From IMG/VR virus record IMGVR_UViG_2925908680_000008: a DNA stretch of 23,582 bases; one strand, 5' to 3'. The stretch's first letter is position 1. Every line of letters starts with the position of its first letter. Source of the stretch: a virus (taxonomy: Duplodnaviria > Heunggongvirae > Uroviricota > Caudoviricetes). The translations under genes and the position numbers were made by a program. Of the stretch, positions 2,413 through 15,967 are shown piece after piece. The notes below the pieces were generated by a model, which saw nothing but the letters and a program-made list of their open reading frames with translations, did no database searches and had not been told where the DNA came from.

Positions 2413-2700
2413 TCACTGACTGCAATTTTTCGATCCAGGGTATTTCCTGAATGCCTTACCATTGGGCTGATGTAATCCCATCCCGGCATGTGCCCGGCTG
2501 ATGGTTTCGCGCATTTCCCCGAAATTATCCTGCCTTGCTGGTGGGCGTGCTGCCTTGCGGATACATTCCGCGCGACGTTTTGCCGCCTGTTCCCGTGCCT
2601 TGTCATCATTCGCCAGCATGATGACCTCAGCCCACCGCGCCGCCGCTCTCCGGTACAGACCACGCGCTTCCAGTGCTTCCGCTTTGCTGTCGTGAATCAT
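2413..2700 (-). CDS. PerC-family transcriptional regulator (PerC homolog, Pch-like)
   Basis: 95 aa; motif KAEALEARGLYRRAAARWAEV matches my recollection of the PerC family signature; start ATG overlaps upstream stop as ATGA. Confidence 0.65.
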   Translation of the reverse strand: MIHDSKAEALEARGLYRRAAARWAEVIMLANDDKAREQAAKRRAECIRKAARPPARQDNFGEMRETISRAHAGMGLHQPNGKAFRKYPGSKNCSQ

Positions 2701-3227
2701 GCGCCTGTTTTCTCCTTTGCTGCCCGGCGCTGACGTTTGCGCTTCTCATTCAGCGCCACCAGCCGCGTTTCTGCGTCCTGTTGTTCCTGTGGTGTCACCT
2801 CGCCGCACGGCTGGCCTTTCAGGTCGTAGCGTACCCCACCAGCCATTAAGGCGCGGTAATAGCGCGGACACTGCGCATAAGATGCCAGCGTCGCACGCAA
2901 TGCCCCTGGACCGAATGCCAGCCCCCTGACGGCGAGATCCTGCATCAGGTCGTCGAATATCCCCACCTTAAGCGGCTTCGGTGCTTCCCGGCTGAATAAT
3001 TCAGGCCACAACTCAGTGAGGCGGTTAACGCGCCTGCGGTTTTTGCGCTGGCGTTTGGTCATATGCCGCCACGGTGTCGCCCCTGTGGGCTTCTGCTGCG
3101 CTTTCTGGTTACCGGGCATCACTTTATGCGCCGATGTGGTTTTATCCTGCTCCTGCGCCGCCTGCGTCGTTTTCTGCGGCGTGCCGTAAATGCCTTTCGG
3201 TTTTCTGTTAATGGTCAGCTTAGTCAT
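2697..3227 (-). CDS. ProQ/FinO-domain RNA-binding protein with basic N-terminal extension
   Basis: PLKVGIFDDL ... LRATLASYAQCPRYYRALMAGGVRYDLKGQPCGEVTPQE closely parallels the ProQ N-terminal FinO-like domain; start taken at ATG 3227 (GGAG RBS), alternative ATG at 3239. Confidence 0.8.
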   Translation of the reverse strand: MTKLTINRKPKGIYGTPQKTTQAAQEQDKTTSAHKVMPGNQKAQQKPTGATPWRHMTKRQRKNRRRVNRLTELWPELFSREAPKPLKVGIFDDLMQDLAVRGLAFGPGALRATLASYAQCPRYYRALMAGGVRYDLKGQPCGEVTPQEQQDAETRLVALNEKRKRQRRAAKEKTGA

Positions 3228-3239
3228 GCTTTGCTCCAT

Positions 3240-3611
3240 CGTTACAACTGTCTACCAACTGTCCACCGATATAATTTATTGATTTATTTGATATTATTTA
3301 CACATAACTAAAAAATAACCTATCAATTGTCTACCAACTGTCTACCGCATTAATACATTGATAATTAATGATTTTTTCAAAATGGTAGACAGAGTAGACA
3401 GTTAAAAGAGAAATTTTAAAAATGAACCCTTAACTATCTGTTTTTTTATATACCCCCCGTGGTTTAGGAATATAGAAACAACTGTCCACTCTCTACCACA
3501 TTTAAAAATATCTATACAATTCAATGCATTAATTGGTAGATGGTTGGTAGAGGATTAAGTATTACTGTCTACCAACCGTCTACCTTTACGTTTCAGCTCA
3601 TAAATTTCGTA
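3240..3611. repeat. iteron-type replication origin with AT-rich unwinding region
   Basis: At least 10 copies of CAACTGTCTACC-like motif in both orientations (e.g. 3245-3267, 3323-3346, 3384-3403, 3479-3497, 3533-3553, 3563-3584) interspersed with AT-rich tracts, directly 3' of the replication gene. Confidence 0.7.
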
Positions 3612-5417
3612 TTATGTTCTGTCGTTAATCCCTGTTGCTGCTGGCAACCAGCTATCAGCATCATCATCTAACAGAACATTTGTTATCACTCGCCCTTTAT
3701 CCTGGCCTTTAGTGCATTTAGCCCGCTTATACTCCTTTCCGTATTCCGCCATAGCACCAGGCATATCAGTGCCAAAGCGTTTCAGTGATACTGGTTTTCC
3801 CAGACCATGCGCTGACATATAGGCTAAATAAGCATGATACAGATATCGCCTCGGGCTAAATGGCACTATTCCCGCATTGCCCACCATCATTCCTTCACAT
3901 TTAACCAACGACATCAGATAGCCGCAAAAGTCCACCAGTGAATCACCCTCACGTTTTATCATCAGAGCCTCTTCTGATTTCTGCTGCTCATATAACAGAC
4001 GTCTGGCTTCATCCTGGTCAGAAAAACGAGTAAGCAGGTGGCGAATAACTACCGCCAGTTCGCCTTCTATTTTTTCCACCAGCATGGGATCGCGTTCGTT
4101 CTCCGGTACGACCTCAGAGAAATTAAATATCACCCTACGACGCGAGATCCCCCCGCTTCGGTCACTGAATGACATGGCGTTATTGTTTACTGCCAGCACT
4201 ACCGCCGGAATACGAGTGGAGTATGGGGCTTTATGTTTCGGGTCGATCGCCACCTTGTCACCACCAGTAATTGCCTTAATTCCTGCACCATCTCCAGCGT
4301 AGCGGGCCATATCCGGCATGATAATCAGCGAAAAGCCAACGACTAACGCGCGTTCCCTTGCGTCTTCCAGCGCCTTCATGCTTGCCGATACTGTATTGAC
4401 CTTACCCGCCAGCATGGTACAAATCTCCGCCATCACACTTTTACCGCTTCCGCCCGGCCCCGTTACCTCAAGGAATAACTGCCAGTCGTACCGGTTCGCC
4501 AGTACCATGAATAATGCCGCCAGTACGCGATCTGCTTTACGATCGTTATTTGCCACCGAACGACGCAGCCACTTCCAGAAATTCGGCGCATGTGTTGCCA
4601 GCGTTTCCCCCTCTGCTGGTGGGCTGAACGGTAATTCACTGGCATTTAACAACCAGTCATTTTTGTTATGCTCCCGAAAATTTCCTGTCCGGGTATCAAA
4701 TACCCCGTTACTGAATCCAATAAGATTCCTGTCTGCCCCGCCCATAACAGGCAGGCTCAATTTCATTGTGTCTACGGCAAATTTAATGGCGTTTTGCGAA
4801 TAACTGATTCCAGCATCAATAAAAATCTTCGCCATAGATCGCTGGAGTTCCTTATCAGATACAGGCTCCCAGACAATTCCGTTGTAATGGTGAACTACAT
4901 CAGAATCGTCATTTATAGCCAGTGCCCTTCCATAATATTCAAGCAATACTTCCCCTCTCTGGCTGGCTCCCATCTGATTTAGTGCTGGCCTGGGTAGGTC
5001 ACTATTTTTTGTGACTAATTTCATCGCTGAAACTTCCCCGCGCTCTGCCTGTTCGCGGATCCGTTGCAGGTAATCGCGCCAGTTCTCCGGCTCCCGGTCG
5101 GTGATGCCTTTGTATAATTTCGCCTCCTGTACGCCAGCCAGTGCCAGTTTTTCAGCGATAGTATTGATCTGGATTGGCTCTATCTCCCCCGCGAGATAGA
5201 CACGCGCAAAGCGGCGTTCATCGTCGACAATGCGGATATTCGCCAGGTCTGCCAGTTGCTTTGGCCCCAGATAAACAGGTGGCACGTTATCGCCGTGTTT
5301 TCGTCCTTCGCTTTCAATCCAGTGTTGAGCATGGGAGTAAGCGTCCGTCCCGGCAAAAATGATTACCTCAGTGAATTTATCCTTCGGCTGATATTTCAAA
5401 TTCGGTGCGTTTTTCAC
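3612..5417 (-). CDS. replication initiation primase/helicase-like protein (P4-family primase C-terminal-type P-loop NTPase)
   Basis: 601 aa; Walker A GPGGSGKS; GTG start at 5417 with GGGAGGT RBS, overlapping upstream stop (GTGA); adjacent iteron origin. Confidence 0.75.
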   Translation of the reverse strand: MKNAPNLKYQPKDKFTEVIIFAGTDAYSHAQHWIESEGRKHGDNVPPVYLGPKQLADLANIRIVDDERRFARVYLAGEIEPIQINTIAEKLALAGVQEAKLYKGITDREPENWRDYLQRIREQAERGEVSAMKLVTKNSDLPRPALNQMGASQRGEVLLEYYGRALAINDDSDVVHHYNGIVWEPVSDKELQRSMAKIFIDAGISYSQNAIKFAVDTMKLSLPVMGGADRNLIGFSNGVFDTRTGNFREHNKNDWLLNASELPFSPPAEGETLATHAPNFWKWLRRSVANNDRKADRVLAALFMVLANRYDWQLFLEVTGPGGSGKSVMAEICTMLAGKVNTVSASMKALEDARERALVVGFSLIIMPDMARYAGDGAGIKAITGGDKVAIDPKHKAPYSTRIPAVVLAVNNNAMSFSDRSGGISRRRVIFNFSEVVPENERDPMLVEKIEGELAVVIRHLLTRFSDQDEARRLLYEQQKSEEALMIKREGDSLVDFCGYLMSLVKCEGMMVGNAGIVPFSPRRYLYHAYLAYMSAHGLGKPVSLKRFGTDMPGAMAEYGKEYKRAKCTKGQDKGRVITNVLLDDDADSWLPAATGINDRT

Positions 5418-5909: not shown

Positions 5910-6267
5910 AATTCACCCCCTGAATAACCTGATAACCGCAACTGGTCAGCAATTCGATAAATTCCGGCAGTGTTCCGAAACAGCAATCATCTCGCAGCCG
6001 TTCTCGGGATACTTCAACGCCGTTTTCGTAGTGACTCACCATGCGTCCGGTAAAATGCAAATCATCATCGTGATGGCACGTTGACGGTTTAATCAGTCGC
6101 GCACGCTCTGCCAGTTCCAGCAATGCTTCAACACTTCCGGCAATTGCACCATCCGGCAGGTGGTAATTACGCACTATGCGCCCGTTCTCCACATGGACCA
6201 GTAGCTGCCCGGTAAATATCTCGTCAAACTGAATGCTGTTAAGGTCAGAAATTGACAGGTTATGCAT
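5902..6267 (-). CDS. hypothetical protein (121 aa)
   Basis: ATG at 6267 overlaps upstream stop (ATGCATAA). Confidence 0.5.
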   Translation of the reverse strand: MHNLSISDLNSIQFDEIFTGQLLVHVENGRIVRNYHLPDGAIAGSVEALLELAERARLIKPSTCHHDDDLHFTGRMVSHYENGVEVSRERLRDDCCFGTLPEFIELLTSCGYQVIQGVNYG

Positions 6268-6625
6268 GGTGCACCTCCTGGCGAATACGGGCAGCGAATA
6301 CCATCACGCAGCCATCAGGAGATTGCTGGCGTGCTTCCTGTTCGCTGGTGGCCTCGATGTGAATTACACGCGGTTGTGCCGTACTCAGGGCGATAAAACG
6401 CCAGATAAAATTGTTCTCGCATTTCTGAATAAACAGCGTGTTTTCTTCGCGCCCTTTCCATGTTGCCGAGATATAGCCCATGTCATTGAGCATCTCGCAG
6501 GCATCAACCAGCGTATCGGCGGCTACGTGTACAGTGTTTTTACCGTCAGCTATGCAATCACGGTGCACCGCCAGGAAGGTGTATATAAATTTAGGGTGAG
6601 TTTGGGTATGCTGTGTTCCAGCCAT
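6260..6625 (-). CDS. hypothetical protein (121 aa), first gene of replication operon
   Basis: ATG at 6625 (MAGTQHT...) with GAGGT RBS; E. coli-like codon usage, unlike the antisense read-through upstream. Confidence 0.5.
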   Translation of the reverse strand: MAGTQHTQTHPKFIYTFLAVHRDCIADGKNTVHVAADTLVDACEMLNDMGYISATWKGREENTLFIQKCENNFIWRFIALSTAQPRVIHIEATSEQEARQQSPDGCVMVFAARIRQEVHHA

Positions 6626-6812
6626 AATCGTTACCTCGTTTAACGGTTTGGTTAGACGCCCCGCTACTGCCGCAAACAGTTCGGGGCGTTGTCGTTTACA
6701 TCCTCTTACTGAGGTGTGATTTAAATTAAATTCAACTGAATCACAGGTCAAGTATTTTTTGTGATTCTTTTTTGTGTATACTGAATCACATCTTTTGTTT
6801 AGGAGAATGCAC
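6626..6812. promoter_or_regulatory. divergent promoter/operator region between replication operon and small regulator gene
   Basis: CTGAATCACA direct repeats at 6737-6746 and 6781-6790 with inverted TGTGATTC between; TATACT -10-like hexamer at 6777-6782; AGGAGA RBS at 6801-6806; 8-bp stem hairpin around 6650-6690. Confidence 0.5.
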
Positions 6813-7118
6813 ATGGCAAAAAACACTATCAACGACAAATCAAAACAGATTTCAATTCGTATCCCACATGATGCTTTTGATGGCATGGAATCCGTAAAAC
6901 TGGACGGCGAAAGCAACGCCGGATTCATAGTAACCGCCATGCGCGGTGAGATCGCCCGCCGCCAGGCAGAAGGAAGAGGAGAAAACCCCCTGGTTTCTTC
7001 GCTCGATGCACTGGCGCAGGTGGAAAAAATCGGTGTCAAAGCTGCCGAGGAGATCGGGCAACTCGTCACCGTCGCGCGTGAAGAACTCCAGCGACGCAAG
7101 GTCAAAGAGCAGGAATAG
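6813..7118 (+). CDS. putative ribbon-helix-helix DNA-binding regulator (candidate island repressor)
   Basis: 101 aa from ATG 6813 with AGGAGA RBS; ISIRIPHDAFDGMESVKL...NAGFIVTAMRGEIARR has a strand-helix-helix pattern; family assignment is by eye only. Confidence 0.45.
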   Translation: MAKNTINDKSKQISIRIPHDAFDGMESVKLDGESNAGFIVTAMRGEIARRQAEGRGENPLVSSLDALAQVEKIGVKAAEEIGQLVTVAREELQRRKVKEQE

Positions 7119-7175
7119 CCACTATCAGCGCCATAGTTTGAGGAACGCAGGCGCATTGCTTTACAGGACAGCACC

Positions 7176-7355
7176 ATGAGCGACACAGAATCAACCAAAA
7201 CACCATCACCAACTCGTAAGAGACGACGCAAAAATATAGCGCATGAACATGAATCAGAAAGATTCGCACCTTGTTCGTTTGCTCTTGAGAAATTCCTTAA
7301 AGAGCACAGGAAAAAGCTCTCGTTGCAAACCTTGGAACGAACCAAATCTGACTGA
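7176..7355 (+). CDS. small basic hypothetical protein (59 aa)
   Basis: ATG 7176, stop TGA 7353-7355; below ORF-track cutoff; RKRRRK basic patch. Confidence 0.3.
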   Translation: MSDTESTKTPSPTRKRRRKNIAHEHESERFAPCSFALEKFLKEHRKKLSLQTLERTKSD

Positions 7356-7756
7356 TCACATTGCCCACCAGCCGCAAATGTGGCATTGTTGGTGATGCGT
7401 TCAAGTTTGATTTGCCGTAATACCCACTGGCGACCCTCTGCGGTCGCCTTTGTTTTATCCAGAACGAAATCAGACATCAGATTGATCAGCACCTGGCGAC
7501 CTGACAAAATCGTATCGGTCGCGCCACCAGCAAAATTTTTTGCTTTCCGGACGATGTGGCCAACGGTATTTTGCAGCAAAATATTCTGCATTTCTGGCGT
7601 GCTGTGGCGACGGTGATCAGCGCCTTCACATTGAACGAACTTGTCGCTAAAATTCACCCACATAGCAAACATCGCGGTGCTGTAGGTAATTCGTTCACAA
7701 AGGCGCTCCGGCAACGGGGCGCTTTCTCTTTTTGTAACGGTCAGAGCGTTACACAT
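7355..7756 (-). CDS. hypothetical protein coupled to ant; 3' end undefined (no in-frame stop)
   Basis: ATG 7756 overlaps ant stop (ATGTGTAA) with GGAGGAAAA RBS; good codon usage for ~134 codons, then frame continues stop-free to 6260. Confidence 0.4.
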
Positions 7757-8627: not shown

Positions 8628-8825
8628 TCAGGTAGCTGTTCCGCGTGATTCAGCAATACGCTGATTAATCCACTCGTCAATTTCACTCTCAACGAAAGCA
8701 ATAGCTCGCGAGCCAATTTTAACTGATGCAGGAAATTTACCTTGCCCCATAAGGCGATAAATCCATGCCTTGCTATATCCAGTTCTACGCTGAACTTCTG
8801 TTAAACGAATAAGCGTATTTGACAT
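8628..8825 (-). CDS. alpA: AlpA-family (Phage_AlpA/Vis-like) transcriptional regulator/excisionase-type HTH protein
   Basis: 65 aa; IRLTEVQRRTGYSKAWIYRLMGQGKFP...ESEIDEWINQR aligns with the AlpA pattern. Confidence 0.85.
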   Translation of the reverse strand: MSNTLIRLTEVQRRTGYSKAWIYRLMGQGKFPASVKIGSRAIAFVESEIDEWINQRIAESRGTAT

Positions 8826-9883: not shown

Positions 9884-10011
9884 ACGCACACCTCAGCGTC
9901 CTCTACTGTAGTGGCTGTACCAGTCCGTCGAGGTGTACGGATTTTCGGGAGCGACCCTAGACACAGCCTTTTCTTTCGTCGCTCAAAGTCTACTACTGTA
10001 TACGCAACCAG

Positions 10012-11226
10012 TCATCCACATTTTCCGAACTTGCCATGCACCACGTTACCGCCATGCTCGAGCGAATCCATATAGTCGGCATACCACTGGAGCATCTCCC
10101 GGCGACCATCCAGATATTGCGCATGGTTGTATGTGCCACGAATTGAGTTTTTATCGACGTGTGCGAGCTGCGTCTCTATCCACGCGGTGTTATAGCCCTG
10201 CTCATGCAAAATGGTGCTCATGGTGTGCCGGAATCCATGACCAGTAACGCGCCCGGCATAGCCGATACGACGAATGAGCACATTCATCGCCATTTCACTC
10301 ATTGGCTTACTGTGGTGAATACGACCGGGGAAAATAAACTGATACTGGCCTGTCATGTTTTTTAACTGCTCCAGTATTTTTATTGCCTGTTCTGGTAATG
10401 GCACGCAATGCGGACGGCGCATCTTCATTCGTTCTTTAGGCACTTCCCACAAACGATTATCAAAATCGATCTCCTGCCATTCTGCCTGCCGTAATTCCCC
10501 GGGTCTGACACCTGTCAGAATTAATAGCCGCATTGCCAGTTTGACGATCTGGCTTCCGGTGTACGTATTAAAAACGCGGAAAAATTCCGGCAGTTCGTCG
10601 GCCTTCAAATAGGCGTAATGCTCTTTTTTATGTGGAGCAAATGCGCTCACCAGATCAGGGGCTGGATTATATTCGGCGCGTCCGGTGATGATTGCGTACC
10701 GGAACACCTCGCCGCATCGCTGGCGAACCTTACGCAATTTTTCAGTCGCACCACGGTCATTAAGACGGGAAAGAACCGCCAGCAATTCCATCGGCTTAAT
10801 TTCTGCGATCGGCCTACCGCCAATGTACGGAAAAACATCTTTTTCAAACGTCTCGATCATTTCCTCGGCGTATGACGATGACCACCTGTCGATCCGCTTT
10901 TCGTACCATTCGCGAGCAATACCCTCAAAAGTATTGCCAAATTTGCTCGCCTGTTCTCGCTTTTGGGCTTTTCTGGCCTCACTTGGATTTATACCACCAG
11001 CAAGAAGCCTTTTAGCCTCATCCCTTGCCGCCCTGGCATCAGACAGGGACACATCAGGGTACACACCCAACGACAACATTTTGGGCTTTCCTGCAAACCT
11101 GTAGCGCAGTCGCCACCCTTTCGAACCGTTCGGCTCAATGAGCAACGAAAGCCCGTTACCGTCATTGAGTGTATAAGCCTTTTCTTTCGGCTTCGCGCGC
11201 CTGATGGCAAGGTCTGAAAGCAGCAT
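10012..11226 (-). CDS. int: P4-type tyrosine integrase (site-specific recombinase)
   Basis: 404 aa from ATG 11226 with GGAG RBS; N-terminal LSDLAIRRAKPKEKAYTLNDGNGLSLLI... typical of P4-family integrases; C-terminal HGFRHT and Y-containing catalytic region. Confidence 0.9.
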   Translation of the reverse strand: MLLSDLAIRRAKPKEKAYTLNDGNGLSLLIEPNGSKGWRLRYRFAGKPKMLSLGVYPDVSLSDARAARDEAKRLLAGGINPSEARKAQKREQASKFGNTFEGIAREWYEKRIDRWSSSYAEEMIETFEKDVFPYIGGRPIAEIKPMELLAVLSRLNDRGATEKLRKVRQRCGEVFRYAIITGRAEYNPAPDLVSAFAPHKKEHYAYLKADELPEFFRVFNTYTGSQIVKLAMRLLILTGVRPGELRQAEWQEIDFDNRLWEVPKERMKMRRPHCVPLPEQAIKILEQLKNMTGQYQFIFPGRIHHSKPMSEMAMNVLIRRIGYAGRVTGHGFRHTMSTILHEQGYNTAWIETQLAHVDKNSIRGTYNHAQYLDGRREMLQWYADYMDSLEHGGNVVHGKFGKCG

Positions 11227-11873
11227 GTGTATAGCTCCAAAAAATAAATTTTGTCCTATACGCATTACTATACACTTCTGTGTGTAGATTCTGGTAGTTG
11301 TGAGTAGACGTTAATGAACTATGAAAATGGCTGGAAGACTTGATATTCGTGGGTTTGATGGACTTTAGTAGACGTTGAGAAATGTTTGTTTGGAGCGGGC
11401 GAAGGGAACAATACAACAAGCCACAAGACCAGTAGTAAAGGCACATTCGCGAGTTCTAAAATAGATTCTATACACATTTCTATACACATTTATCACTCGC
11501 TTGGGAATTACACATCCCCTGTTATCCGTGATCAAGCTGGTGGATGATCACGGATAACCGATATGGGAATCCCCATATCGGCATCGCGTAGTTAATCGTA
11601 GTGGCTACCGTAGTAGTTGAGTAGCAGGATGTAACCTGCCAGGAAGGAAATGATCGGTCGTAACTCGCCACCACCAGCCACAGAACGCAAATTTGCGTCG
11701 TCGGATATATCAACAACTTAGCACAAAAATAAGTCAGGCAGATACAAACCTCAAATTTGAGGTTTGCTTGTTTATCAACGGGTAAGGATAATCATCTCCC
11801 CTTTAAAGTCCCTTCGAAGGGTTACCCGTAGGCTTAATGTAAGGCTTGGCTGTAGCCTTACCGAACGCTCCGC
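11227..11873. other. int-upstream / att-proximal region with direct repeats and perfect palindromes (att core not identified)
   Basis: CTATAC(A/G)C repeats at 11266-11290 and 11466-11492; AGTAGACGTT twice; 14-bp-arm inverted repeat 11521-11558; 10-bp-arm palindrome 11558-11581; 22-bp perfect palindrome 11745-11766. Confidence 0.4.
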
Positions 11874-12079: not shown

Positions 12080-12345
12080 GCTGGTTGACACTTTCCGGCT
12101 TAAGACCTTAACAAATCTTAACATCGCAGGTTGACACACTTGACACTTTTTCGCGAAAAACCTTATCAAACCTTAGCATTTCTAAGCATGGCAACTTGAC
12201 ACTTTTCGCGATTTTTTCGGCTTTTTGACGTGGTAAATCTGGCGCAAAGCCAGTAACGGCGGGGTTTACAGCGAGGTTGACACTTTTTCGCGTTCAGAGT
12301 GTAAAGTGTCAACCCGGCAGACGGCCTGACTTGACACTTTTCGCG
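12080..12345. repeat. array of TTGACAC(TTTTCGCG) repeats between small junction ORF and TerS-like gene 3' end
   Basis: TTGACAC at 12085, 12131, 12140, 12196, 12277, 12331 plus inverted GTGTCAA at 12306; four copies share TTGACACTTTT(T)CGCG. Confidence 0.6.
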
Positions 12346-12358
12346 AATTTTACGGTCA

Positions 12359-12883
12359 TTAATGGGATGATTTTTCCCACTCAGCCAGGGCGTTTAGTCC
12401 GGCTTCACTCCAGTTATCCAGCTCATCGGGACAATCACCTGCAACATAGCAGAGCTCACAACGCAGCATACGAATTGCCAGCCTGGCATTTTCCCGAAAA
12501 TCATACTGCTCAAAGTAATATTGCCCAGCATAATCCTCAAGGCAGATAGCACCATCATCAAGAAATTGCACTTCACAGCATAGTTCCCCGGCTGCATCCT
12601 GCACACGCTGCTGTATGTCATCGTCCGTTACTGGTGCAGGGATTTTACCGTCTCTGGCCTTAACTGCTTTCCAGAACTCGCCCCACGTCATTTCCAGCGT
12701 TCTCTCTGGCCACATTTCAGAAACGGTATCTTTTCCCTGTGCTGGTGGGCTGTTCCGCTGCTCTGTCGCTTCCACATCGATTTTTTTACCGGACATGACC
12801 ACTTCGCCTTTCTCGATCCAGTCGTAAACTGTCTGGCGGCTTACGCCTTTGTGTTTGGCATATTCTGCCTTGCTCATAAACAT
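12359..12883 (-). CDS. TerS-like HTH protein (copy 2)
   Basis: Identical 174-aa translation to 1-525. Confidence 0.45.
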   Translation of the reverse strand: MFMSKAEYAKHKGVSRQTVYDWIEKGEVVMSGKKIDVEATEQRNSPPAQGKDTVSEMWPERTLEMTWGEFWKAVKARDGKIPAPVTDDDIQQRVQDAAGELCCEVQFLDDGAICLEDYAGQYYFEQYDFRENARLAIRMLRCELCYVAGDCPDELDNWSEAGLNALAEWEKSSH

Positions 12884-15595: not shown

Positions 15596-15967
15596 CGTTA
15601 CAACTGTCTACCAACTGTCCACCGATATAATTTATTGATTTATTTGATATTATTTACACATAACTAAAAAATAACCTATCAATTGTCTACCAACTGTCTA
15701 CCGCATTAATACATTGATAATTAATGATTTTTTCAAAATGGTAGACAGAGTAGACAGTTAAAAGAGAAATTTTAAAAATGAACCCTTAACTATCTGTTTT
15801 TTTATATACCCCCCGTGGTTTAGGAATATAGAAACAACTGTCCACTCTCTACCACATTTAAAAATATCTATACAATTCAATGCATTAATTGGTAGATGGT
15901 TGGTAGAGGATTAAGTATTACTGTCTACCAACCGTCTACCTTTACGTTTCAGCTCATAAATTTCGTA
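15596..15967. repeat. iteron-type replication origin, copy 2
   Basis: Duplicate of 3240-3611. Confidence 0.7.

What the first reader, a model, noticed from the sequence alone, without database searches (positions are those of the whole stretch)
3240..3611. Iteron origin directly downstream of the primase/helicase gene
The 370-bp non-coding stretch has at least 10 copies of a CAACTGTCTACC-like motif in both orientations, separated by AT-rich tracts. Its placement immediately 3' of the replication gene matches the origin layout described for SaPI/PICI-type satellites and gives a concrete autonomous-replication module.
Basis: partly seen in the sequence, partly recalled or inferred. Interest (0 to 1): 0.4.

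Follow-up and report, generated by a model that had tools for sequence, protein, structure and literature searches.

The report
Iteron replication origin of E. coli satellite
The repeat-filled, AT-rich gap after the helicase gene is very probably the replication origin of a 12.4-kb phage-satellite island (PICI) of Escherichia coli, a kind of origin already described and tested in a sister island, so the finding is correct but ordinary.

Summary
Observation confirmed. Window 3240-3611 holds 12 copies of CAACTGTCTACC, 8 in one orientation and 4 in the other, arranged as six doublets. GC is 30-33%, and the region contains the least stable duplex of the whole 12.36-kb element. No comparable site lies elsewhere in the element.

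Interpretation supported. The window is about 1.9 head-to-tail copies of an E. coli island. The island has an integrase, an AlpA-like regulator, a replication (Rep) gene and PerC, all on one strand. It is 100% identical to strain U90, where it sits next to tRNA-Gly.

The adjacent 601-aa protein has an SF3 helicase. Its C-terminal domain matches the solved origin-binding domain of phage P4 alpha (1ka8, E 1e-19). The experimentally tested origin of the sister island EcCICFT073 uses the same core, TGTCTACC, in a similar arrangement. The surrounding sequences otherwise look unrelated.

In 74 Enterobacterales homologues, the 500 bp 3' of the gene is AT-rich in all, and in nearly all the commonest 8-mer is an iteron. 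Iteron class tracks the putative wing of the origin-binding domain.

Two qualifications. The "primase" part looks like a degenerate TOPRIM remnant, so priming is probably by the host. Unlike P4, there is only one iteron cluster.

Verdict: a new member of a known kind, of low to moderate interest.

The parts
3240..3611 (-). Replication origin (iteron array plus AT-rich spacers), copy 1. It may extend to 3228 if the downstream gene starts at 3227.
   Evidence: Homologous in design to the tested EcCICFT073 origin.
15596..15967 (-). The same origin in the second head-to-tail copy of the element (offset 12356).
3245..3267 (+). Iteron doublet A (CAACTGTCTACC, CAACTGTCCACC; 11-bp spacing). It abuts the ribosome-binding site of the ProQ/FinO gene.
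3268..3323 (.). AT-rich spacer A-B (GC 0.14). It contains the least stable 30-, 50- and 100-bp duplex of the whole 12.36-kb unit and is a candidate unwinding element.
   Evidence: dG -48.8 against a mean of -70.3, sd 5.1, for 50-mers.
3324..3404 (.). Cassette 1: doublet B (+, 3324/3335), a 37-bp AT-rich spacer (3347-3383, GC 0.16) and doublet C (-, 3384/3393). The doublets face each other.
3405..3478 (.). Central 74 bp (GC 0.28) with T/A runs and a conserved box CCCCGTGGTTTAG. It is the centre of the dyad between the two cassettes and the second least stable 50-mer of the unit.
3479..3557 (.). Cassette 2: doublet D (+, 3479/3486), a 37-bp AT-rich spacer (3498-3534, GC 0.16) and doublet E (-, 3535/3546). 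It is an inverted copy of cassette 1.
   Evidence: alignment score 32 against -16 +/- 4.7 for shuffles. For the spacers alone, 3 of 1000 shuffles reach the observed score. Also I1-I3.
3562..3584 (+). Iteron doublet F (TTACTGTCTACC, CAACCGTCTACC), 28 bp after the stop codon of the replication gene. It forms a 17-bp inverted repeat with doublet E.
   Evidence: (I8).
3612..5417 (-). Rep gene, 601 aa. It has a degenerate TOPRIM-like N-domain (residues 1-130, 5028-5417), a D5_N plus SF3 helicase region (residues ~146-485, 3963-4982) and a winged-helix origin-binding domain (residues 491-592, 3642-3947).
3669..3722 (-). Putative wing (beta-hairpin, residues ~566-583, ...KCTKGQDKGRVITNV...) of the origin-binding domain. 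This segment co-varies with iteron class.
   Evidence: The hairpin position comes from the alignment to 1ka8 and from a low-confidence model.

Best explanation
The stretch is the vegetative replication origin of a 12.36-kb phage-inducible chromosomal island (PICI) of E. coli.

Proposed mechanism:
1. After induction, the 601-aa Rep protein is made from the gene just upstream.
2. Its C-terminal winged-helix domain recognises the TGTCTACC core of the 12 iterons. Most doublets are spaced 11 bp apart, one helical turn, so two domains would sit on the same face of the DNA.
3. Doublets facing each other across two 37-bp AT-rich spacers, together with the outer doublets A and F, gather many Rep molecules around very unstable DNA.
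4. The duplex melts in one of the AT-rich tracts and the SF3 helicase ring is loaded.
5. The N-terminal TOPRIM-like domain lacks the catalytic residues, so primers are probably made by host DnaG and synthesis by host polymerase III.

Shown here: the repeats, their non-random clustering, the AT-rich low-stability DNA, the protein domains, homology to a tested origin, and co-variation of iteron class with the wing.

Inferred: binding, the site of melting, helicase loading and the source of primers.
For: - Twelve iterons lie only here in the unit.
- The four least stable 50-mers of the unit are all inside the region.
- Rep residues 491-592 match the crystal-structure sequence of the P4 alpha origin-binding domain, 1ka8, at E 1e-19. 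Rep is 50% identical to P4 alpha over the helicase plus origin-binding domain.
- In P4, ten type-1 repeats TGTTCACC (the crr) lie immediately 3' of alpha.
- Rep is 44% identical to EcCICFT073 Pri-Rep. A plasmid carrying that gene and its downstream region was maintained, and deleting either the gene or the region reduced maintenance (PMC6092414).
- That tested region carries 10 copies of T[GAC]TCTACC in both orientations. Doublet order and spacings are similar (57/60, 53/54 and 79/79 bp), but by eye the spacers look unrelated.
- In all 74 homologous loci from Enterobacterales, the 500 bp 3' of the gene has GC 0.29-0.46. In nearly all of them the commonest 8-mer is an iteron of the form T-N-T-NNN-CC.
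- Iteron class follows the wing motif: 54 of 55 TCA, 8 of 8 CCA, 3 of 3 CCG and 8 of 8 CTA loci.
- At equal helicase identity (86-87%), relatives with the same iteron class keep residues 559-601 at 76% identity. Relatives with another class keep them at 36-52%.
Against: - Nothing has been tested for this particular sequence.
- In P4, the iteron cluster at the same position (crr) is an auxiliary cis element. The initiation site lies 4.5 kb away.
- In the EcCICFT073 experiment, deleting the origin reduced colony numbers rather than abolishing them.
- The wing-iteron association is confounded by shared ancestry.
- The wing position rests on sequence alignment to 1ka8 and on a low-confidence model (pLDDT 38).
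- Within E. coli the region is 87-100% identical. At that divergence, iterons are not visibly better conserved than spacers.
Confidence: 0.8

Rival explanations
1. The cluster is a P4 crr-like auxiliary cis element. Rep binds it and it enhances or regulates replication (looping, copy control by handcuffing), but DNA synthesis starts elsewhere.
For: It occupies the same position as the P4 crr, directly 3' of a 50%-identical alpha homologue. The crr is also a set of about 10 iterons in both orientations.
Against: No second iteron cluster exists in the 12.36-kb unit; the best outside site scores 10.3 bits against 12.1 or more inside. The least stable DNA of the element lies inside this region. 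In EcCICFT073, the replication gene plus the homologous downstream region supported plasmid maintenance. The two 120-bp direct repeats typical of the crr are absent; the cassettes here are inverted.
Confidence: 0.1
2. The repeats are operator sites of a transcription regulator. The regulator could be Rep acting as an autoregulator, or PerC or AlpA. The sites would control the downstream ProQ/FinO-PerC-packaging genes or terminate and stabilise the Rep mRNA, with no role in replication.
For: Doublet A abuts the ribosome-binding site of the ProQ/FinO gene. Doublets E and F form a 17-bp hairpin 28 nt after the Rep stop codon (I8). The transcript strand folds far better than shuffles, z = -6.2.
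Against: No promoter-like or terminator-like site was found on the coding strand. The hairpin has no U tract. The iteron type follows the Rep wing, not the downstream genes, and those genes differ in EcCICFT073 (hypothetical protein, SSB). In FDAARGOS_1300 the ProQ side of the region is replaced by an IS3 while the part next to Rep is retained.
Confidence: 0.05
3. The region is a packaging (cos/pac) or partition site rather than an origin.
For: Satellites need a packaging signal. Centromere-like sites are also arrays of short repeats.
Against: No partition genes were seen among the ORFs that were scanned. A different repeat family lies next to the terminase-small-subunit-like gene at 12080-12350 and is a better packaging candidate. 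The repeats here match those of a tested origin.
Confidence: 0.03

Closest known systems
Origin of the E. coli PICI EcCICFT073 (Fillol-Salom et al. 2018, ISME J, PMC6092414)
   Same: - It lies immediately 3' of a 44%-identical Pri-Rep gene.
- It uses the same iteron core, T[GAC]TCTACC, in both orientations and as doublets.
- Read from the gene, the order of doublets is similar, with similar spacings (57/60, 53/54, 79/79 bp).
- It has AT-rich spacers.
- The island type is the same: integrase, AlpA, unidirectional genes and PerC.
   Different: - By eye the sequences look unrelated outside the iterons. This was not tested by alignment.
- The window origin is longer (372 against about 250-290 bp).
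- It has an extra gene-proximal doublet (F) and about 70 extra central bases.
- Its iteron spacing is 11 bp rather than 9-11 bp.
- Its two cassettes form an 80-bp inverted repeat.
- Its Rep is closer to P4 alpha (50%) than to the CFT073 protein over the helicase plus origin-binding domain (46% and 38%).
Phage P4 crr and ori with alpha protein (GenBank NC_001609 annotation; origin-binding domain structure 1ka8, Yeo et al. 2002)
   Same: - The homologous initiator has an SF3 helicase plus a winged-helix origin-binding domain (E 1e-19).
- An octamer iteron of the same family is used (TGTTCACC against TGTCTACC).
- An iteron cluster lies directly 3' of the initiator gene.
   Different: - P4 is bipartite, with an ori 4.5 kb away plus the crr. 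Here there is one cluster.
- The crr is two 120-bp direct repeats. Here there are two inverted cassettes.
- P4 alpha has a zinc finger and an active-type TOPRIM primase. Here about 190 residues are missing and the catalytic motifs are lost.
- The island lacks sid, psu and delta.
SaPI origins of Staphylococcus aureus (Ubeda et al. 2007 PNAS; Ubeda et al. 2012 Plasmid; cited from my own knowledge and from PMC6092414)
   Same: The origin lies immediately 3' of the Rep helicase gene. Two sets of short iterons flank AT-rich DNA. Iterons are specific for the cognate Rep.
   Different: Per my own knowledge, the Rep family and iteron sequence are unrelated (hexanucleotides) and the host is Gram-positive. 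There the primase is a separate or fused active protein.
Origins of SF3-helicase initiators of eukaryotic DNA viruses (SV40 large T antigen, papillomavirus E1; textbook knowledge)
   Same: An SF3 helicase is fused to an origin-binding domain. Binding sites in inverted orientation surround easily melted DNA.
   Different: No sequence relationship of the origin-binding domains was shown here. Assembly of a double hexamer on this origin is only an inference.

Membership tests
Iteron-type replication origin | Several copies of a short motif clustered far beyond chance | tested here: met
   Twelve copies lie in 340 bp. There are nine 8-mer hits against about 0.24 expected, and 0 of 100 shuffles reach the window total.
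Iteron-type replication origin | Adjacent AT-rich, easily melted DNA | tested here: met
   GC is 0.14-0.28 in the spacers. The four least stable 50-mers of the 12.36-kb unit lie here.
Iteron-type replication origin | A cognate initiator with a sequence-specific DNA-binding domain is encoded next to it | tested here: met
   Rep residues 491-592 match the P4 origin-binding domain 1ka8 at E 1e-19. The wing motif co-varies with iteron class in 77 loci.
Iteron-type replication origin | The initiator binds the iterons, and the module replicates autonomously | not testable with these tools
   Only the homologous EcCICFT073 module was tested, by others (PMC6092414).
Gram-negative PICI (Fillol-Salom 2018) | Integrase at one end and site-specific integration | tested here: met
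   A 417-aa tyrosine recombinase lies at 10012-11265. In E. coli U90 the island sits next to tRNA-Gly, is 12376 bp long and so is 18 bp longer than the 12358-bp repeat unit of the window, which is compatible with a short duplicated att core.
Gram-negative PICI (Fillol-Salom 2018) | AlpA-type regulator and unidirectional transcription | tested here: met
   A 65-aa HTH protein at 8628-8825 hits excisionase/regulator PHROGs. There is an int-alpA RNA Rfam hit at 9900-9967, 45.5 bits against a gathering score of 35.8. All long ORFs are on the minus strand.
Gram-negative PICI (Fillol-Salom 2018) | Pri-Rep gene followed by an origin with iteron sets flanking AT-rich DNA | tested here: met
Gram-negative PICI (Fillol-Salom 2018) | Helper-phage induction, packaging and interference | not testable with these tools
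   Indirect only. The window is a head-to-tail multimer of the excised form. A terminase-small-subunit-like gene and a DUF2213 gene are present.
Phage P4-like satellite replicon (ori + crr + alpha) | Alpha-type initiator with an active primase (zinc finger plus TOPRIM), helicase and origin-binding domain | tested here: not met
   The helicase and origin-binding domain are present at 50% identity. The first ~190 residues of alpha are absent, the Glu is replaced by Ala22 and the DxD motif is lost.
Phage P4-like satellite replicon (ori + crr + alpha) | Two separate iteron clusters (ori and crr) about 4.5 kb apart | tested here: not met
   The island has a single cluster. P4 has both.
Phage P4-like satellite replicon (ori + crr + alpha) | The sid, psu, delta and epsilon genes | tested here: not met
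   None of these appear among the Pfam, PHROG or RefSeq names of the island genes.

The most novel reading that the evidence does not exclude
The island's initiator may be a P4-alpha derivative that has lost primase chemistry and merged P4's two cis elements into one origin. That origin would be built as two inverted iteron cassettes around a central unstable tract. The geometry would suit head-to-head loading of two SF3 helicase rings, as in SV40 or papillomavirus origins.

Across the family, the central trinucleotide of the iteron (CTA, TCA, CCA or CCG) would be read by the beta-hairpin wing of the origin-binding domain. This would give a simple, swappable specificity code that sets replicon compatibility among co-resident satellites.
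Probability: 0.3. Interest if true: 0.45.

Novelty: new member of a known kind. Interest (0 to 1): 0.27.

Why it matters
It marks the replication module of a widespread E. coli satellite. The same origin is present, unannotated, in 105 of 5426 complete E. coli genomes. The result gives exact coordinates for a minimal replicon.

The comparative data add a testable rule linking the wing of the initiator to the iteron sequence. They also suggest that these "primase family" proteins are not primases.

None of this changes the general picture of how PICI or P4-type satellites replicate.

Tried and rejected
- **Phage genome search.** The region gave no match in distant mode against phage genomes.
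- **Rfam.** Nothing meaningful fell inside the region; one sub-threshold chance hit, Plastid-psbM, at 30.5 against 52.7 bits.
- **Promoter and terminator scan.** Nothing on the coding strand and nothing above the shuffle expectation.
- **Motif scans.** No DnaA boxes and no GATC sites. Two IHF-consensus matches (3272, 3351) are not distinguishable from chance in AT-rich DNA.
- **Conservation within E. coli.** The region is 87-100% identical. That is too close to separate iterons from spacers, so I moved to other species.
- **Inverted-architecture reading.** I considered that the window origin is the common architecture turned round. The direct reading fits the spacings better.
- **Structure of the origin-binding domain.** The single-sequence AlphaFold model was unusable (pLDDT 38). 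Only its helix-helix-helix-hairpin pattern is mentioned.
- **Supplements of PMC6092414.** They hold no iteron sequences, so I could not tell whether this exact origin was drawn in Fig. 2a of that paper.
- **IMG/VR.** Twelve contigs contain the 21-mer of doublet E. I did not analyse them further.
- **CFT073 coordinates.** My first guess landed in a lambdoid prophage.

Full report
**What the window is.** The 23,582-base window is about 1.9 head-to-tail copies of one 12,356-12,358-bp unit. The two copies are 99.98% identical and differ only by two A6/A5 homopolymer indels, at 903 and 2028.

The unit is 100% identical to an island in the chromosome of E. coli strain U90. There it is present once, next to a tRNA-Gly gene, and is 18 bp longer, which is compatible with a short duplicated att core. 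The match splits at window position about 11408, so the window has the junction expected of the excised, circular or concatemeric form.

All genes read on the minus strand:
- integrase (10012-11265)
- an Rfam int-alpA RNA (9900-9967)
- an AlpA-like HTH protein (8628-8825)
- an AntA-domain protein
- an Icd-like protein
- a DUF4222 protein
- a 601-aa "DNA primase family protein" (3612-5417)
- the gap under study
- a ProQ/FinO-domain protein, PerC, a DUF2213 protein and a protein with a terminase-small-subunit-like N-terminus

This is the gene content and one-direction layout described for Gram-negative phage-inducible chromosomal islands (PMC6092414).

**The observation.** It is correct. The gap 3240-3611 holds 12 copies of CAACTGTCTACC.
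- Eight copies are on the + strand: 3245, 3256, 3324, 3335, 3479, 3486, 3562, 3573.
- Four copies are on the - strand: 3384, 3393, 3535, 3546.
- They form six doublets, A to F. Internal spacing is 11 bp in four of them, 9 bp in C and 7 bp in D.

The 8-mer core with at most 1 mismatch occurs 33 times in the window, against 10.8 +/- 3.2 in shuffles. Eighteen of those hits are in the two copies of this region. A weight matrix scores all 12 copies at 12.1 bits or more and nothing else in the unit above 10.3 bits.

GC falls to 0.30-0.33 and the spacers are 0.14-0.28. Only chance ORFs of 43 aa or less lie wholly or mainly inside the gap. RefSeq starts the downstream gene at 3227, so the gap may be 3228-3611.

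**Anatomy.** The order on the + strand is as follows.
- Doublet A (3245-3267), pointing right.
- A 56-bp spacer of GC 0.14.
- Cassette 1: doublet B pointing right, a 37-bp spacer of GC 0.16, doublet C pointing left.
- A 74-bp centre (3405-3478).
- Cassette 2: doublet D pointing right, a 37-bp spacer of GC 0.16, doublet E pointing left.
- Four bases.
- Doublet F (3562-3584), pointing right.
- Twenty-seven bases, then the stop codon of the replication gene at 3612-3614.

Cassette 2 is an inverted copy of cassette 1. The alignment score is 32 against -16 +/- 4.7 for shuffles. For the two spacers alone, only 3 of 1000 shuffles reach the observed score (I1-I3).

With nearest-neighbour energies, the least stable 30-, 50- and 100-bp stretches of the whole unit lie in the A-B spacer. 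For 3268-3318, dG is -48.8 against a mean of -70.3, sd 5.1. The four least stable 50-mers are all inside the gap.

**The neighbouring protein.** Pfam finds D5_N, DUF5906 (SF3 helicase core) and Pox_D5. Residues 491-592 match the sequence of the crystal structure of the phage P4 origin-binding domain, 1ka8, at E 1e-19. That domain is a winged helix (PMC2777425).

The protein is 50% identical to P4 alpha over alpha residues 327-769, which cover the helicase and the origin-binding domain. It is 44% identical over its full length to Pri-Rep of EcCICFT073.

MAFFT aligns the domain with the TOPRIM of P4 alpha. The motif WIAEGYATA of P4 is IIFAGTDAY here, so the Glu is an Ala that is nearly invariant in the family. 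LAADRDLSGDG of P4 is YLAGEIEPIQ here, so the DxD motif is lost. There is no zinc finger.

I therefore read the protein as an origin-binding SF3 helicase with a degenerate primase remnant. This is inference from a model and alignments, not an assay.

**Comparison with tested and annotated origins.** In P4, the GenBank record annotates the crr ("cis required region for replication"). It has ten type-1 repeats TGTTCACC and lies immediately 3' of alpha. The ori proper is 4.5 kb away.

For EcCICFT073, Fillol-Salom et al. cloned rep plus the downstream region into a temperature-sensitive plasmid. Maintenance at 44 degrees depended on both the gene and the region. I located that island. Its 288-bp gap carries 10 copies of T[GAC]TCTACC, the same core as here, in both orientations and mostly as doublets.

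Read from the gene, the order and spacings of doublets agree with the window once doublet F and about 70 central bases are set aside:
- right-pointing pair, AT-rich spacer, left-pointing site: 57 against 60 bp
- right-pointing group to left-pointing pair: 53 against 54 bp
- left-pointing pair to the last left-pointing pair: 79 against 79 bp

Outside the iterons the two gaps look unrelated by eye; I did not test this by alignment. Apparent conservation of the core and the geometry but not the rest is the strongest comparative argument for function.

**Wider comparison.** A scan of one genome per species returned 80 loci with homologues in Escherichia, Kluyvera, Klebsiella, Raoultella, Enterobacter, Serratia, Yersinia, Pectobacterium, Erwinia, Xenorhabdus, Photorhabdus and others.

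In all 74 that could be analysed, the 500 bp after the stop codon has GC 0.29-0.46. In nearly all of them the commonest 8-mer is an iteron of the form T-N-T-NNN-CC. With the window, EcCICFT073 and P4 added, the set is 77 loci. Classes by the central three bases, with the matching wing motif, are:

| Class | Example iteron | Loci | Wing motif | Loci with the motif |
|---|---|---|---|---|
| TCA | TGTTCACC (as in P4) | 55 | K-x-G-[ILM]-[RQC]-[ST]-N | 54 of 55 |
| CTA | TGTCTACC (as here and in CFT073) | 8 | K-G-[RV]-x-x-[TS]-N | 8 of 8 |
| CCA | TCTCCACC or TGTCCACC | 8 | [KR]-G-N-x-[RQ]-S-N | 8 of 8 |
| CCG | TGTCCGCC | 3 | R-G-R-I-Q-S-N | 3 of 3 |

Two further loci were unclear.

The segment of the origin-binding domain that aligns with the beta-hairpin of 1ka8 follows the class, as the table shows. 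The putative recognition helix FGTDMPGAMAEYG is identical in members of three classes.

Relatives with the same helicase identity to the window protein (86-87%) keep residues 559-601 at 76% identity when the iteron class is the same (L015, L020). They keep them at only 36-52% when the class is TCA (L012-L021).

Shared ancestry inflates such associations. The assignment of the wing rests on the 1ka8 alignment and on a low-confidence model. I therefore give this as a supported hypothesis, not a result.

**Mechanism proposed.**
- Rep binds the iterons through its winged-helix domain. Sites 11 bp apart lie on one face of the DNA.
- The convergent doublets bracket AT-rich spacers, and the two inverted cassettes bracket a central unstable tract.
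- Binding and oligomerisation melt one of these tracts, and the SF3 ring is loaded.
- Host DnaG primes.

The repeats, the composition, the domains and the homology are shown. Binding, melting site, loading and priming are inferred.

Which AT tract opens is not determined. The A-B spacer is the least stable. The spacer between the first convergent pair is the one shared with the other origins.

**Rivals.**
- A crr-like auxiliary element is the serious rival, because of the P4 precedent. However, there is no second cluster in the island. The unstable DNA is here. The homologous CFT073 fragment supported plasmid maintenance.
- A purely transcriptional role is unlikely. There are no promoter- or terminator-like sites on the coding strand. 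The iteron class follows the Rep wing rather than the downstream genes.
- A packaging or partition role has no support. A different repeat family near the terminase-like gene is a better packaging candidate.

**Novelty and score.** The kind of element is published and was functionally tested in a sister island.

This particular origin differs from the tested one in several ways. The sequence outside the iterons looks unrelated, the spacing is 11 bp, there is an extra doublet, and the cassettes are inverted. It occurs, unannotated, in 105 of 5426 complete E. coli genomes and in E. ruysiae (L011).

I file it as a new member of a known kind, with interest 0.27. The added value lies in three things: the exact map, the wing-iteron association, and the indication that the "primase" domain is degenerate.

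Noticed in passing
window 1-23582; junction about 11408/11409; indels at 903 and 2028: The window is about 1.9 head-to-tail copies of the excised island (period 12356-12358, 99.98% identity). The copies differ only by two A6/A5 homopolymer indels, which frameshift the DUF2213 gene and its neighbour in copy 2. This could be a concatemer, a circular molecule assembled twice, or long-read error. In strain U90 the island is single-copy beside tRNA-Gly.
   Followed up: partly
window 12080-12350 (unit coordinates; 3' of the 174-aa ORF 12359-12883, which equals 1-525): A second, unrelated repeat family: about 7 copies of TTGACAC(T)TTT(T)CGCG, six on one strand and one inverted. It lies next to a protein whose N-terminus hits terminase-small-subunit and Cox-like HTH PHROGs. 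It may be a packaging (cosB/pac-like) or operator site.
   Followed up: partly
[not shown]
   Followed up: yes
L004 (E. coli ETEC1734, NZ_CP122801) 2489-3567: This island carries two iteron clusters in tandem. One is a CFT073-like cluster directly after its own replication gene (3252-3567). The other is a window-type origin (2489-2870). Between them lie the 3' remnant of a window-type replication gene and a RepA-helicase pseudogene fragment. This is a recombination scar between replicon modules.
   Followed up: partly
L007 (E. coli FDAARGOS_1300) 2449-2755; 3 of the 40 listed hits: An IS3-family element replaces the ProQ/FinO side of the origin and removes doublets A and B. Some islands therefore carry a truncated origin.
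   Followed up: no
window 3447-3464: The box CCCCGTGGTTTAG, within ACCCCCCGTGGTTTAGG, lies in the centre of the origin. It is invariant in all seven E. coli variants aligned and in E. ruysiae. It is absent from the CFT073-type origins. Its role is unknown.
   Followed up: no
window 3240-3611 (-): Folded as a single strand, the region is far more stable than shuffles (-102.9 kcal/mol, z = -6.2) because of the inverted iterons. A cruciform or hairpins in unwound DNA or in read-through RNA are possible.
   Followed up: no
window 9900-9967 (-): An Rfam int-alpA RNA (RF02996) hit at 45.5 bits, above the gathering score of 35.8, lies between the integrase and the next ORF.
   Followed up: no
window 6260-7756 (-): The mechanical 498-aa ORF is annotated in RefSeq only as a 223-aa Icd-like protein (6260-6928). 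A YlcI/YnfO gene is annotated on the opposite strand (6813-7118). The long ORF may be partly spurious.
   Followed up: no
window 11521-11558: A perfect 14-nt inverted repeat, GTTATCCGTGATCA / TGATCACGGATAAC, with a 10-nt gap, lies near the attachment junction.
   Followed up: no
window 3227-3256: Doublet A ends 6-18 bp from the two candidate start codons of the ProQ/FinO gene (3239 and 3227). The second start has a GGAG ribosome-binding site. Rep binding could therefore also affect expression of the downstream gene.
   Followed up: no
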